DNA of 7,337 bases from a virus. Taxonomy: Duplodnaviria; Heunggongvirae; Uroviricota; Caudoviricetes. The DNA lies in the IMG/VR virus record IMGVR_UViG_2671180430_000004; one strand, 5' to 3'. A model generated the notes under the pieces. The model was not told where the DNA came from and ran no database searches. It worked only from the letters and a program-made list of their open reading frames with translations. The translations under genes were made by a program, and so were the position numbers. This document shows positions 1 to 6,513 of the stretch, one piece after another (the first letter of the stretch is position 1; each line of letters starts with the position of its first letter).

Positions 1-25
1 GGGAAAAATATCATCAGATGGCTGC

Positions 26-379
26 TTAAAAAAAGAACAAATGGTAGTGTCCGCTATTGCCAGTACACCTCAATTGCTCTGCGGCTTCGCTCAGAGCTGG
101 CGTATGTTCCCGGCCTACTGATTCACACAGGTAATCAACGAAACCGGACACCAGTTTTCGTTCGCGAGGCGTGATCGCCCCACCGACCGGAGTCCAGTAA
201 TCGAAACCCAGTTGCAGGAGTTTGAAAAAACGCTTGTGGAATGCGTAGTTACACACACGCTTAAAGTCTGCGTGTATCCACTCACCTATTTTGATTTGAT
301 GCAGAAAATCGCAACTCTCCGGCGTCGCCGGGAGAAGTAATCCGGAAGAGGTTTGTTTGACCAGTTGTATATGTGCCAT
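26..379 (-). CDS. hypothetical protein, 117 aa, second gene of a two-gene operon
   Basis: Track ORF 26..421 starts at a TTG (421-419). An in-frame ATG at 379-377 is preceded by GGAG with a 7-nt spacer, giving MAHIQLVKQ... Stop TAA at 28-26. No family recognised. Confidence 0.55.
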   Translation of the reverse strand: MAHIQLVKQTSSGLLLPATPESCDFLHQIKIGEWIHADFKRVCNYAFHKRFFKLLQLGFDYWTPVGGAITPRERKLVSGFVDYLCESVGREHTPALSEAAEQLRCTGNSGHYHLFFF

Positions 380-830: not shown

Positions 831-877
831 CAACAAAAAACCCGCCGAAACGCTGAGAGATCACAGCGATGGGCGGG
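831..877 (-). terminator. rho-independent terminator downstream of hok
   Basis: CCCGCC (841-846) pairs with GGCGGG (872-877), with an inner CGCTG/CAGCG stem (851-855 / 864-868). On the minus-strand transcript the hairpin is followed by UUUUUUGUUGUUUAUUU (plus 840-824). Confidence 0.5.
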
Positions 878-954
878 TTAAGTGCGGGTGCGTTGAGGAT
901 GCCTGACACATCAGAGGTGGGCGGGGATGGGATCAGCTCCCCGCCCGGTCACTC

Positions 955-1110
955 TTACTTCCTGGATTCGTAGTCTACGAAGACAGCGACCTCCGTCTGG
1001 CCGGTTCGGATTCGTACCTCACAGAGGTCTTTCCTCGTTACCAGTGCCGTCACTATGACGGTTAAACAGATGACGATCAGGGCGATTAACATCGCCTTTT
1101 GCTGCTTCAT
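955..1110 (-). CDS. hokD: Hok/Gef family type I toxin, 51 aa, closest in my memory to HokD/RelF
   Basis: From the ATG at 1110-1108 the product is MKQQKAMLIALIVICLTVIVTALVTRKDLCEVRIRTGQTEVAVFVDYESRK, matching recalled HokD/RelF except for the last residues. AAGGAG lies 9 nt upstream. Stop TAA at 957-955. The track ORF 955..1167 is an in-frame TTG extension into the leader. Confidence 0.85.
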   Translation of the reverse strand: MKQQKAMLIALIVICLTVIVTALVTRKDLCEVRIRTGQTEVAVFVDYESRK

Positions 1111-1286
1111 AGCCTGCTTCTCCTTGCCTTTCGGCATGTAAGAGGCTAACCTACATGTGCAAAGCATGAAATTGGCCTCAGATTAATGTTAAGCGTCTTG
1201 CCGGACGCGTAATGTTAACTGGGGCTTTTCTCTATCTGCCTTTTGGTGTTCATGCCTGAAGCAGATAGCCTCAAGCACCCGCAGTC

Positions 1287-1316
1287 ATTCTACTTACCTC
1301 GCCAATATGAAATCAA
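1287..1316 (-). promoter_or_regulatory. candidate hok mRNA promoter
   Basis: Minus strand TTGATT (1316-1311), 18-nt spacer, TAGAAT (1292-1287). Predicts a leader of about 170 nt before the hok ATG, as is typical of hok mRNAs. Confidence 0.3.
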
Positions 1317-1337
1317 TCAGAAAGGTGCCCCATAAAA

Positions 1338-2024: not shown

Positions 2025-2171
2025 AAAAATATCAAAGAGTGTAGCATTAGAACGGGGCTATCGGAAACAGATGTGTGACTGCTCCCCGCCCTTTCGGGTG
2101 GTCTCCTGATGATTTGAGGGTGCAGAAATCCCTCCGGTTAAGGATTAAATTTTTAACAGTGCTAAATTTAA

Positions 2172-2510
2172 TTATTCAGTTCTGGATTTTGTCGCCCTGC
2201 GTATCCGCGCTTTCGCGTTACGCTCAATCTGTATCAGCTTTTCTATATTTCTCCGCCTTTCCTGTTCCTCCTGGCGCAATAGCCTTACATCATCTGCCAG
2301 TCTGGTTTCTCTTTTTGCCACAGAGAGCATCCAGTCAAACGGCTCCACAACCGCACCGCAGATTTTACAGCGGACCTGACGCTCTTTTTCGTCAACCCGG
2401 ACAGAGGCGTGATGGCAATATGGTCTTTCCGATGGTTCATAAAGAAAATTAACCTGATTACGAGGGTCATCCTCTTTTACCGGAAATAAAACGATATTGC
2501 TTAACTCATC
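2172..2510 (-). pseudogene. 5'-truncated paralogous copy of the zinc-ribbon gene at 3097..3453
   Basis: Ungapped alignment to 3097..3437 at an offset of 925 bp. The frame is open for 112 codons (DELSNIVLFPVKEDDPRNQ...RRATKSRTE, stop TAA 2174-2172) but has no start. The codon homologous to Glu6 of the intact copy is TAA (2513-2511), which is also the stop of the upstream 123-aa ORF. Confidence 0.55.
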
Positions 2511-2882: not shown

Positions 2883-3096
2883 AACATCTCATGGTGGCGC
2901 ATAGCAAACTGGCCCGAAGAATATCACGCACCAAGTCGATCTCATAACCCGTTATGACAATAAATCTTTGTAGCTGAACTCACTTGGTGATTTGTCAATC
3001 ATTCCTGGCCTCCAGTTCGTCCTGAATCTCTTTATCGAGTTCACCGTATTTGTTAGTCCTCATCACTCACGACTTGACTTCCAGAAATAACCTTGA

Positions 3097-3437
3097 TTAT
3101 TCGGGGCTATATTTTGTCACCCTGCGTATCCGCGCTTTCGCATTACGCTCAATCTGGATTAGCTTTTCTATATTTTTTCGCCTTTCCCGCTCCTCCTGGC
3201 GCAAGAGCCTTACATCATCTGCCAGTCTGGTTTCTCTTTTCGCCACAGAGAGCATCCAGTCAAATGGCTCCACAACTGCACCGCAAATTTTACAGCGGAC
3301 CTGACGCTCTTTTTCGTCAACCCGGACAGAAGCGTGATGGCAATATGGTCTTTCCGATGGCTCATAAAGAAAATTAACCTGATTACGAGGGTTATCCTCT
3401 TTTACCGGAAATAAAACAATATTGCTTAACTCATCTT
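3097..3437. repeat. direct repeat copy B, about 341 bp
   Basis: Homologous to 2172..2512; this copy carries the intact gene. Confidence 0.85.
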
Positions 3438-3453
3438 CTGGTTTTATTTCCAT
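3097..3453 (-). CDS. small Cys/His zinc-ribbon-like protein, 118 aa
   Basis: ATG at 3453-3451 preceded by AAGGAGAGGAG; the track start is an upstream GTG at 3510. Stop TAA at 3099-3097. Motif C-H-H...C-K-I-C-G. Differences from the paralogous copy are about 13 synonymous to 4 nonsynonymous in this frame, supporting minus-strand coding. Confidence 0.7.
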   Translation of the reverse strand: MEIKPEDELSNIVLFPVKEDNPRNQVNFLYEPSERPYCHHASVRVDEKERQVRCKICGAVVEPFDWMLSVAKRETRLADDVRLLRQEERERRKNIEKLIQIERNAKARIRRVTKYSPE

Positions 3454-3510
3454 GCTCCTCTCCTTTGATGCGAATGCCAGCGGTAATTGAAGCCTGATAG
3501 CTAATTTCAC

Positions 3511-5448: not shown

Positions 5449-6513
5449 TCACCCCCTGAATCCCGGCGGAATTTCGGTATCCGGTTCAGAAATATGATTC
5501 ACACAACGCTGGTTGTTCGTGCCGCTTACCGGGAGCAACCAGGGGTTTTCAAAATTCCGGTCCGGCCCAAAAAACGTCGTCGCTCGCTGAACAAATTCCG
5601 TTCCCGCTTTCCCGGTCGCCGCCAGGTATCTCGCGTAACGCCTCACACCATCCAGCATGGTCTCTGGTGGCACCCCCTCGCGCAATCTGGCCTTCCAGGC
5701 ACTGAATGCGGATTTCTTCGGGTTTGCCCCGGCACGCAACGGGTATTCCCGCCAGACCTGTTCGAACACATCCGGATAATCCACTCGTCCCACAGGCTGC
5801 CCGGTGTTTTCCGGGGCTACCCGATCGGCTTCCCGCTGAATGGCGGAATCGGCTTCAGGCTGCTGCAGTTGGAGTGATTGCTCCGGCCTTGCGGTCATCA
5901 CCTGCTGCACAGCGCCCGAATCGGCTTTCAGCGCATACGCTGAATCGGCTTCCGGTGTCGAGCCTGCTGGCTGACCAGGATTGACGGTCTGAACATCCCC
6001 TGCCTGGTTCGTGGCGTTTTTTACGCCATGGACCATAGTGTTTTGATCTTCTTTATCTGTATCTTTATCTGTATCTGTCGTGACTCGTCGTGACATGTGC
6101 GTGACATTTCGTGACGCGCCGTGACAATCGCCATTTTGTTCCCGCTTTCTTTCCCTCTCTCGCTGCGCCCTCTTGCGCTCTGCAGGAGATTTTGCGGTTT
6201 GCGAAATATTGCCGTTGTCCTCTTTAAGCACCTGGCGTTTTTCCCATCCAGTGATTAAATCACCATCAAGTACCCGCCCCTGCATCGTCTGCAAAATTGA
6301 ATCAATTACCTCTTCTGTCACGTCGAGCGCACTTGCCAAATCTTCTGTCGTGACATCAATGTGACCTCGCGTGACATTTCGTGACGCGCTCACCAGGAGG
6401 TGGATATACACTGCCATCACTGTTGCAATTGGCTGCCCTGACACCCTGGCAATTGTTCGCCACTTAGGGTCATTTGGCATGTCATGCCATAATCTGAGCC
6501 AGGCGTTAGCCAT
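5449..6513 (-). CDS. phage replication initiation protein (O-like replisome organiser)
   Basis: ATG at 6513-6511; the track start is a GTG at 6519. The N-terminal domain (WLRLWHDMPNDPKWRTIARVSGQ...) resembles phage replisome-organiser/DnaD-like N-domains, followed by a charged low-complexity linker and a conserved C-terminal domain. It lies directly upstream of the DnaC-like gene and contains iteron arrays. Confidence 0.8.
   Translation of the reverse strand: MANAWLRLWHDMPNDPKWRTIARVSGQPIATVMAVYIHLLVSASRNVTRGHIDVTTEDLASALDVTEEVIDSILQTMQGRVLDGDLITGWEKRQVLKEDNGNISQTAKSPAERKRAQRERERKREQNGDCHGASRNVTHMSRRVTTDTDKDTDKEDQNTMVHGVKNATNQAGDVQTVNPGQPAGSTPEADSAYALKADSGAVQQVMTARPEQSLQLQQPEADSAIQREADRVAPENTGQPVGRVDYPDVFEQVWREYPLRAGANPKKSAFSAWKARLREGVPPETMLDGVRRYARYLAATGKAGTEFVQRATTFFGPDRNFENPWLLPVSGTNNQRCVNHISEPDTEIPPGFRG
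6035..6125. repeat. putative origin core: AT-rich tract plus five phased CGTGAC iterons
   Basis: GTGAC at 6080, 6090, 6101, 6111 and 6121 (spacing 10, 11, 10, 10 bp), immediately 3' of the AT-rich tract ATCTTCTTTATCTGTATCTTTATCTGTATCTGT (about 6046-6078). Lies in the linker-coding part of the initiator gene. Confidence 0.55.
6317..6389. repeat. second iteron array: four phased GTGAC plus one inverted copy
   Basis: GTGAC at 6350, 6361, 6371 and 6381 (spacing 11, 10, 10 bp) and GTCACG at 6317-6322. The 21-bp block GCGTGACATTTCGTGACGCGC at 6369-6389 is identical to 6099-6119. Confidence 0.55.

What the first reader, a model, noticed from the sequence alone, without database searches (positions are those of the whole stretch)
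878..1337. Stand-alone hok-like locus with its own promoter, long leader, 3' stem-loops and terminator; antisense Sok predicted
In K-12 Qin, hokD is the third gene of relBEF. Here the hok homologue follows the QueH-like gene with an apparent own promoter and leader, a 9-bp GC stem-loop just after the stop (919-946) and an intrinsic terminator, which is the layout of an autonomous hok/sok module. A Sok-like antisense RNA would be expected on the plus strand; a candidate promoter is TTGCCT (1124-1129), 17-nt spacer, TAACCT (1147-1152).
Basis: partly seen in the sequence, partly recalled or inferred. Interest (0 to 1): 0.45.

Follow-up and report, generated by a model that had tools for sequence, protein, structure and literature searches.

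The report
Complete prophage hok/sok toxin-antitoxin module

Summary
The minus strand of window ~1316-835 carries a complete hok/mok/sok type I toxin-antitoxin module.

- **Parts present:** own promoter, 170-nt leader, in-frame mok (70 codons), hok (51 aa), a 9-bp GC hairpin after the stop, an fbi element pairing with the 5' tac element, and a terminator.
- **Family match:** Rfam RF01794 scores 117 bits (cut-off 59) and Pfam HOK_GEF gives 9.8e-23.
- **RNA structure:** the full-length mRNA folds with 5'-3' closure (z = -9.4), and this pairing covaries across 28 relatives.
- **Sok:** Mutating that -10 region in Sp5 abolished antitoxin activity (Takada 2021). Sok maps to 1159-1229 (+), 71 nt.
- **How common:** the locus is 91% identical to hokW/mokW/sokW, annotated in 1999. 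At least 80% of it is found in 3807 of 5426 complete E. coli genomes.
- **K-12 contrast:**

Verdict: interpretation supported, already known, low interest. The one mildly interesting point is that variation among alleles peaks in the Sok 5'-tail target.

The parts
1311..1316 (-). hok promoter -35 (TTGATT)
   Evidence: Consensus scan, 18-nt spacer, 9 of 12 matches. The window has a 10-nt deletion relative to the O18 type, which uses TTGGCG at a 17-nt spacer.
1287..1292 (-). hok promoter -10 (TAGAAT)
   Evidence: A -10-like box ends 6 nt before the GGG (+1) in about 70 related loci with unrelated upstream sequence. Homology with 933W begins here.
835..1280 (-). Full-length hok mRNA (about 446 nt; 5' end inferred from Rfam model position 1, 3' end from the terminator)
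   Evidence: The Rfam hit starts at 1280. MFE -191.5 kcal/mol against -139.4 +/- 5.5 for shuffles, z -9.4. The consensus structure is 97.8% paired across 28 relatives, with 16 covarying pairs against 8.3 +/- 1.6 in shuffles.
1269..1280 (-). tac element (GGGUGCUUGAGG) at the mRNA 5' end
   Evidence: Pairs with fbi in the MFE fold. Duplex energy -21.5 kcal/mol.
1252..1278 (-). 5' hairpin of the nascent transcript (candidate metastable structure sequestering tac)
   Evidence: -16.9 kcal/mol, z -3.6. The role is inferred from the R1 model described in PMC9841398.
1221..1228 (-). ucb-like box (AAAGCCCC), which pairs with tac in the Rfam consensus structure
   Evidence: Structure line of the RF01794 alignment. 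Nearly invariant among relatives.
1142..1179 (-). Sok-target hairpin carrying the mok Shine-Dalgarno (GAGG 1179-1176) and the mok AUG
   Evidence: Rfam structure. The most variable stretch of the leader among 44 distinct alleles.
955..1167 (-). mok reading frame (70 codons, in frame with hok, same stop)
   Evidence: ORF list. The geometry is the same as annotated K-12 mokC/hokC and 933W mokW/hokW.
955..1110 (-). hok toxin gene (51 aa, MKQQKAML...YESRK)
   Evidence: Pfam HOK_GEF E 9.8e-23. 50 of 51 residues identical to HokW and 46 of 51 to K-12 HokD. RefSeq names identical copies HokD.
1124..1129 (+). sok promoter -35 (TTGCCT), overlapping the hok Shine-Dalgarno region
   Evidence: Sequence. 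The complementary CCGAAAGGCAAGGAG block is almost invariant in 28 relatives.
1147..1152 (+). sok promoter -10 (TAACCT)
   Evidence: Identical box in 933W/Sp5. Primers YO-421/422 replace the sequence containing this box in the promoter-less construct that loses antitoxin activity.
1159..1229 (+). Sok antisense RNA (71 nt): 15-nt single-stranded 5' tail, long hairpin, UUUU end
   Evidence: Mapped from the 933W sokW annotation. Same +49 offset from the hok ATG as K-12 sokC. Fold -28.6 kcal/mol, z -4.7.
919..946 (-). 9-bp GC hairpin after the hok stop codon
   Evidence: Folds. Compensatory variants among alleles (helices 13 and 14).
886..898 (-). fbi element (CCUCAACGCACCC)
   Evidence: Pairs with tac. 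Covariation at alignment columns 4/408: UA 15, CG 9, UG 3.
835..879 (-). Intrinsic terminator: two-tier hairpin 879-839 plus U-run
   Evidence: Fold. Alignment with the canonical terminator of the O18 and K-12 copies shows a 23-nt loop insertion here.

Best explanation
This is an intact, self-contained hok/mok/sok type I toxin-antitoxin cassette of the HokD/HokW subgroup. It sits in the early-right (nin) region of a lambdoid prophage, between a QueH-like gene and a 95-aa ORF.

**Shown from sequence and comparison**
- A conserved promoter sits at a fixed distance from a conserved 5' end.
- The mRNA has 5' tac and 3' fbi elements that pair and covary.
- mok overlaps hok in frame.
- A 71-nt antisense RNA gene has its promoter inside the mok/hok start region.

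**Inferred from the R1 and Sp5 systems**
1. The hok promoter makes a stable, closed, untranslatable full-length mRNA.
2. Slow 3' trimming removes fbi, the 5' end refolds onto ucb, and the mok ribosome-binding site and the Sok target hairpin are exposed.
3. Abundant but short-lived Sok pairs through its 5' tail with that hairpin, blocks mok (and so the coupled hok) translation, and triggers RNase III cleavage.
4. When Sok synthesis stops, through loss or induction of the prophage, the mRNA reservoir is translated and Hok inserts into the inner membrane and depolarises the cell.
For: - **Family matches:** Rfam RF01794 at 117 bits over the whole model and Pfam HOK_GEF.
- **Folding:** the MFE of the full-length mRNA includes the tac/fbi closure, z -9.4.
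- **tac/fbi covariation:** GGGUGC/GCACCC changes to GGGCGC/GCGCCC, GAGG/CCUC to GAGA/UCUC, and GAAG/CUUC also occurs.
- **Whole structure:** 97.8% of cells paired, 16 pairs with compensatory changes against 8.3 +/- 1.6 in shuffles (0 of 500 reach it) and 1-6 in slid controls.
- **Sok:** the fold shows a free 5' tail plus a terminator-like hairpin.
- **Orthologue:** 91% identity to the annotated hokW/mokW/sokW of 933W. The Sok offset equals that of K-12 sokC.
- **Experiments on the orthologue (PMC8621323):** HokW is toxic, a sokW promoter mutant loses protection, Northern blots detect both RNAs, and RNase III and Hfq are involved.
- **Promoter:** the -10 box is conserved across contexts.
- **R1 mechanism** as summarised in PMC9841398.
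Against: - There is no expression or toxicity data for this copy.
- The sok promoter is weak by consensus (7 of 12) and the scan did not flag it.
- The -35 of the hok promoter is shifted by a 10-nt deletion relative to the commoner O18 type.
- The MFE of a 3'-truncated mRNA gave the 5' local hairpin rather than the tac/ucb stem.
- Chromosomal hokA/B/C loci were reported unable to mediate post-segregational killing (bioRxiv 10.1101/2025.08.07.668861).
- The host prophage looks degraded, with an IS600 end at 1-72.
Confidence: 0.9

Rival explanations
1. The cassette is structurally intact but functionally silent: a chromosomal or prophage relic that no longer kills, like the K-12 chromosomal hok loci. 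It would persist by hitch-hiking with the prophage.
For: [quoted passage not shown]
- The prophage here carries an IS600 insertion.
- The hok -35 is altered by a 10-nt deletion.
Against: - Every regulatory element and both ORFs are intact.
- The hok coding sequence is nearly invariant at the nucleotide level across 44 alleles.
- Structure-preserving covariation implies ongoing selection.
- The 98%-identical HokW is toxic and is regulated by SokW.
Confidence: 0.2
2. hok has no promoter of its own here. It is transcribed only by read-through from QueH and the early-right operon, so it behaves as a phage early gene rather than an autonomous module.
For: - QueH stops at 1338, only 22 nt before the -35.
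- No terminator-like site was found between them.
- hok lies on the same strand as the replication genes.
Against: - A -10-like box sits at a fixed 6-nt distance from the conserved GGG in about 70 loci with unrelated upstream DNA.
- Homology with 933W begins at that box.
- hokW mRNA is present in uninduced Sp5 lysogens.
- The tac element must be at or near the 5' end to work as in R1.
Confidence: 0.07
3. The cassette works as a normal hok/sok module, but its main biological role is not prophage maintenance. It either helps lysis and phage release on induction, as proposed for hokW-sokW, or aborts infection by other phages, as reported for R1 hok/sok against T4.
For: - Deleting hokW-sokW halved Sp5 release and delayed growth arrest, and sokW disappears on induction.
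- R1 hok/sok reduces T4 plating (cited).
Against: - This copy lies in a different prophage region from hokW (nin region versus the far right end).
- It lies in an IS-disrupted prophage.
- Nothing in the sequence discriminates between the roles.
Confidence: 0.4

Closest known systems
hokW / mokW / sokW of Stx2 phage 933W and Sakai prophage Sp5 (AF125520; Takada et al. 2021, PMC8621323)
   Same: - 91% nucleotide identity from the -10 box to just past fbi.
- Hok is 50 of 51 residues identical.
- mok is in frame.
- The sok -35 and -10 hexamers are identical, and the 16-nt extension of the Sok hairpin is the same.
   Different: - Both flanks differ: hokW lies near the right prophage end next to a YgiW-like gene and lacks this terminator.
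- The -35 of the hok promoter differs.
- 7 of the first 20 Sok nucleotides differ.
- The post-stop hairpin differs, with a compensated stem and a longer loop.
hokD (relF) of the relBEF operon, K-12 Qin prophage
   Same: The hok coding sequence, post-stop hairpin, fbi and terminator stem are homologous (90% over 252 nt). Hok is 46 of 51 residues identical.
   Different: In K-12, homology starts only at the hok Shine-Dalgarno. relE replaces the promoter, tac, ucb, mok start, Sok target and sok gene. The window has all of these.
hokC (gef) / mokC / sokC of E. coli K-12
   Same: - Same architecture and the same +49 offset of Sok from the hok ATG.
- In-frame mok.
- tac GGGUGCUUGAGG is identical.
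- About 75% nucleotide identity.
   Different: - hokC lacks the 16-18-nt extension of the Sok hairpin.
- It has a different Sok tail.
- It is a chromosomal, non-prophage site, disrupted by IS186 in K-12.
hok/sok (parB) of plasmid R1
   Same: The mechanistic model applies: tac/fbi closure, ucb/dcb switching, mok-coupled translation, Sok antisense and RNase III. It falls in the same Pfam and Rfam families.
   Different: R1 Hok shares only 44% identity with HokW. It is carried on a plasmid.

Membership tests
hok/sok (Hok/Gef) type I toxin-antitoxin family | About 50-aa hydrophobic Hok/Gef peptide | tested here: met
   Pfam PF01848 at 79.9 bits (cut-off 22), covering the whole profile. The NCBIfam Hok-family subfamily model scored 55 bits, below its 73-bit cut-off.
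hok/sok (Hok/Gef) type I toxin-antitoxin family | Long structured leader homologous to the family's RNA model | tested here: met
   RF01794 at 117 bits against a gathering score of 59, model positions 1-157 of 157, minus strand 1280-1105.
hok/sok (Hok/Gef) type I toxin-antitoxin family | Overlapping mok frame starting upstream of hok, with its own Shine-Dalgarno | tested here: met
   ATG at 1167, GAGG 8 nt upstream, 70 codons, sharing the stop with hok. Same layout as mokC and mokW.
hok/sok (Hok/Gef) type I toxin-antitoxin family | 5' tac - 3' fbi long-range pairing closing the full-length mRNA | tested here: met
   Present in the MFE fold. Duplex -21.5 kcal/mol, with covariation at three positions across genera.
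hok/sok (Hok/Gef) type I toxin-antitoxin family | cis-encoded antisense Sok gene with its promoter in the mok/hok start region, covering the mok translation start | tested here: met
   The promoter hexamers are identical to those of sokW. The mapped RNA 1159-1229 covers the mok Shine-Dalgarno and AUG, and the fold has a free 5' tail plus hairpin. This is a sequence-level test only.
hok/sok (Hok/Gef) type I toxin-antitoxin family | Sok actually transcribed and unstable; hok mRNA stable and 3'-processed; RNase III cleavage of the duplex | not testable with these tools
   Shown only for the orthologue in Sp5 (Northern blots, rnc and hfq mutants) and for R1.
hok/sok (Hok/Gef) type I toxin-antitoxin family | Hok kills or arrests the cell when Sok is absent | not testable with these tools
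   HokW, which differs by one residue, is toxic when induced.
relBEF-type hokD (K-12 Qin) | hok directly downstream of relE, with no leader, mok or sok | tested here: not met
   The window has the full leader, and no RelE is encoded next to it.

The most novel reading that the evidence does not exclude
The Sok 5' tail and its target hairpin form a hypervariable specificity cassette. Among HokD/W-type prophage copies, divergence is 35-40% across the first 20 Sok nucleotides, against under 3% in the hok coding sequence. There are at least three major alleles, and the window carries the third. This would create orthogonal recognition groups, letting several prophage hok/sok copies coexist in one genome without cross-silencing, or letting one prophage neutralise another's addiction module. 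A further possibility applies to this nin-region placement: antiterminated early-right transcription runs head-on into the sok promoter, which could be how induction shuts off Sok.
Probability: 0.3. Interest if true: 0.35.

Novelty: already known. Interest (0 to 1): 0.1.

Why it matters
It matters little as a discovery. The cassette was annotated in phage 933W in 1999, shown to work in 2021, and is present in about 70% of complete E. coli genomes.

The practical value is for annotation:
- RefSeq names only the Hok CDS ('HokD') at identical copies and omits mok and Sok.
- The Rfam 'sok' model hits the hok-sense strand, so automatic pipelines can place the antitoxin on the wrong strand or miss it.

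The allele survey points to a testable question: whether Sok-tail diversity sets up incompatibility or specificity groups among co-resident prophages.

Tried and rejected
- **Terminator scan:** found no terminator in 700-2200. The terminator is real but has an enlarged loop, so folding and alignment were used instead.
- **Promoter scan:** did not flag the sok promoter. Chance statistics cannot support it, so the case rests on homology and the published mutant.
- **Folding a 3'-truncated mRNA (903-1280) and the leader alone:** both gave the local 5' hairpin, not the tac/ucb stem of the Rfam consensus. MFE prediction therefore does not by itself reproduce the 'open' form, and I did not claim it.
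- **NCBIfam:** only sub-threshold Hok-family and HokA hits, and no named HokD model. The 95-aa neighbour ORF has no Pfam or NCBIfam family.
- **Whole-window search:** no complete E. coli genome covers at least 80% of the window. The prophage is a mosaic. The cassette itself is 100% identical in two FDAARGOS strains and 99.6% identical in E. coli ECMA0423 and Shigella flexneri SFBU1023.
- **QueH-hok as a fixed pair:** rejected. QueH is upstream in only 3 of 80 viral-contig relatives, although it is common among the best E. coli hits.
- **Other Rfam hits (mir-331, hairpin ribozyme):** far below their gathering scores, so treated as chance.

Full report
**What is in the sequence**

The minus strand between about 1316 and 835 holds a 51-codon ORF (1110->955, MKQQKAMLIALIVICLTVIVTALVTRKDLCEVRIRTGQTEVAVFVDYESRK). 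A longer in-frame ORF starts at ATG 1167 and runs 70 codons. The peptide matches Pfam HOK_GEF over the whole profile, at 79.9 bits and E 9.8e-23.

A search of the whole window against Rfam gave one significant hit. RF01794 ('sok antitoxin') matches minus strand 1280->1105 at 117 bits against a gathering score of 59, E 6e-27, covering model positions 1-157. The model starts at GGGUGCUUGA and ends at the hok AUG. It therefore describes the hok-mRNA leader on the sense strand, not the antisense RNA. That fixes the mRNA 5' end at about 1280.

**Promoter and 3' end**

The consensus scan finds TTGATT (1316-1311), an 18-nt spacer and TAGAAT (1292-1287) on the minus strand. The -10 box ends 6 nt before the GGG at 1280. 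I collected about 70 related loci from genomes and viral contigs. In all of them a -10-like hexamer (TAGAAT, TATAAT, TACAAT, TAAGAT, TATATT and others) ends exactly 6 nt before the conserved GGG, although the sequence further upstream is unrelated. This is the main argument for an autonomous promoter.

Downstream of the stop codon (957-955) lie three elements:
- A 13-nt fbi element, CCUCAACGCACCC (898->886).
- A two-tier hairpin (879->839) ending in a U-run.

The simple terminator scan missed the last one. Alignment shows why: the O18 and K-12 copies have the canonical CCCGC-TTCG-GCGGG-Tn terminator, and the window carries a 23-nt insertion in its loop.

**RNA structure**

The 449-nt stretch 1280->832 folds to -191.5 kcal/mol, against -139.4 +/- 5.5 for dinucleotide shuffles (z -9.4). 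The MFE structure pairs the first 12 nt (tac) with fbi. For each related locus I computed the best duplex between the 5' end and the 3' UTR. It always falls 41-55 nt after the stop, and it covaries:
- GGGUGC/GCACCC in Escherichia becomes GGGCGC/GCGCCC in Photorhabdus, Pantoea and Erwinia.
- GAGG/CCUC becomes GAGA/UCUC in Photorhabdus.
- GAAG/CUUC occurs in Citrobacter youngae.
- G-U intermediates are present.

On a 28-sequence alignment, RNAalifold recovers three things:
- The tac/fbi helix.
- A helix pairing CCUCUUAC in the leader with GUAAGAG at the hok stop.
- A helix sequestering the hok start.

Counting that structure gives 97.8% of cells paired and 16 pairs with compensatory changes. Shuffles give 8.3 +/- 1.6 (0 of 500 reach the observed value) and slid controls give 1-6. 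One caveat applies: the structure was derived from the same alignment.

The first 36 nt also form a local hairpin (-16.9 kcal/mol), a candidate for the metastable structure of nascent hok transcripts. Folding a 3'-truncated RNA gave this hairpin rather than the tac/ucb stem. The 'open' conformation is therefore supported only by the Rfam consensus structure, not by my MFE runs.

**The antisense RNA**

They match the sigma-70 consensus at only 7 of 12 positions, and the scan did not flag them. Their support comes from comparison.

- Phage 933W (AF125520) annotates mokW, hokW and 'SokW antisense RNA', 71 nt.
- The window is 91% identical to that locus from the -10 box to just past fbi.
- The sokW coordinates map to window 1159-1229.
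- Both sok hexamers are identical, and the spacer differs by one base.
- K-12 sokC starts 49 nt upstream of the hokC ATG. Here, 1159 - 1110 = 49.

The 71-nt RNA folds into a 15-nt free 5' tail, a long hairpin and a UUUU end (-28.6 kcal/mol, z -4.7). It covers the mok Shine-Dalgarno (GAGG 1179-1176) and the mok AUG.

Experimental evidence exists for the orthologue (Takada et al. 2021, PMC8621323):
- HokW is toxic.
- A construct whose sokW -10 region is replaced loses protection. Primers YO-421/422 change ...GGC-TAACCTA-CATG... to ...GGC-GAGCCGG-CATG....
- sokW supplied in trans partly restores growth.
- Northern blots detect both RNAs in uninduced lysogens.
- sokW disappears on mitomycin induction, and HokW then appears in the inner membrane.

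**Comparison with K-12 hokD**

Aligned with MG1655, homology begins only at AAGGAGAAGCAGGCUAUG, the hok Shine-Dalgarno. Everything upstream is relE. K-12 does keep the post-stop hairpin, fbi and terminator stem.

**How common it is**

At least 80% of the 521-nt query is found in 3807 of 5426 complete E. coli genomes, with a median of 2 places per genome that has any match and up to 9. RefSeq names the CDS 'type I toxin-antitoxin system toxin HokD', often next to 'epoxyqueuosine reductase QueH'. It annotates neither mok nor Sok there.

Exact copies occur in two FDAARGOS strains. Copies 99.6% identical occur in E. coli ECMA0423 and Shigella flexneri SFBU1023. Hok genes are known to be enriched in prophages (bioRxiv 10.1101/2025.08.07.668861).

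The upstream neighbour varies. QueH is upstream in 3 of 80 viral-contig relatives, RelE in the K-12 type, and other genes elsewhere. This fits a mobile, self-contained cassette.

**Mechanism**

The R1 model is summarised in PMC9841398. It comprises:
- a closed full-length mRNA;
- 3' trimming;
- a tac/ucb refold;
- mok-coupled hok translation;
- Sok binding and RNase III cleavage.

All the sequence elements this model needs are present here, and I take it as the most likely mechanism. The presence of the elements is shown; the dynamics are inferred. The biological role cannot be decided from sequence. It could be prophage maintenance, help with lysis on induction as in Sp5, or exclusion of other phages.

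**A feature of modest interest**

Among 44 distinct HokD/W-type alleles, the hok coding sequence is almost invariant (minor-allele fraction 0.03 or less per 10-nt bin). Variation peaks at mRNA +105 to +128, the target of the Sok 5' tail and the mok start, where it reaches 0.28. It also rises in the loop of the 5' hairpin, the Hok C-terminus and the post-stop hairpin.

The tail target has sixteen variants with three major ones. The window's is the third most common (10 of 67 loci). It differs from the 933W allele at 7 of the first 20 Sok nucleotides and from the other major allele at 8 of 20. Because the tail makes the first contact with the target in R1, this may define specificity groups. That is inference and was not tested.

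**Verdict**

The system is already known, so interest is low.

Noticed in passing
window 1105-1280 (minus strand): Rfam RF01794, named 'sok antitoxin', matches the hok-sense strand from the mRNA 5' end to the hok AUG. It models the hok leader, not the 71-nt antisense RNA. Taken at face value, the hit would annotate a 176-nt 'antitoxin' on the wrong strand.
   Followed up: yes
window 1142-1179; related loci L005-L131: Among 44 distinct HokD/W-type alleles, variation peaks in the target of the Sok 5' tail (16 variants, three major), while the hok coding sequence is nearly invariant. This may define Sok specificity groups among co-resident prophages.
   Followed up: partly
window 1-72: The left end of the window is the terminal part of an IS3-family IS600-like element. 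It cuts the DUF1367 gene, whose ORF at 26-421 matches only profile positions 1-102 of 198. The prophage is therefore IS-disrupted.
   Followed up: partly
window 2163-2462 and 3088-3387: A 300-nt direct repeat, 92% identical. The 58-aa ORF at 2172-2348 duplicates the C-terminal part of the 137-aa zinc-ribbon ORF at 3097-3510.
   Followed up: no
window 967-972 (minus strand, Tyr47-Glu48 codons UACGAA): UACGAA is invariant in all 28 aligned family members, including the silent third codon position. UACG resembles, from my own knowledge, the TadA target motif. A-to-I editing (Tyr to Cys) is reported for hokB, with something similar in hokC, hokD and hokE (bioRxiv 10.1101/2025.08.07.668861).
   Followed up: no
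window 1293-1300 and 847-871: Two small indels are specific to this allele group. A 10-nt deletion between the usual -35 (TTGGCG) and the -10 of the hok promoter brings TTGATT into register. A 23-nt self-pairing insertion sits in the terminator loop.
   Followed up: partly
L002 7136-7291 (RefSeq NZ_CP065615) and L003: RefSeq (PGAP) annotates only the 51-aa HokD CDS at identical or near-identical copies. Neither mok nor an ncRNA for Sok is annotated, although K-12 and 933W records carry them.
   Followed up: yes
L017, L022, L032; H32: Near-identical E. coli-type hok sequences appear on tiny contigs assigned to Acinetobacter idrijaensis (275 nt) and Xanthomonas pisi (431 nt), and in an 'Actinobacillus phage' record. 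These are probably contamination or mislabelled records. Separately, Photorhabdus temperata locus L032 carries tandem hok copies.
   Followed up: no
window 6087-6125 and 6347-6385: Clusters of GTGAC-containing repeats (families D2 and D3) lie inside the replisome-organizer (O-like) gene. They may be origin iterons.
   Followed up: no
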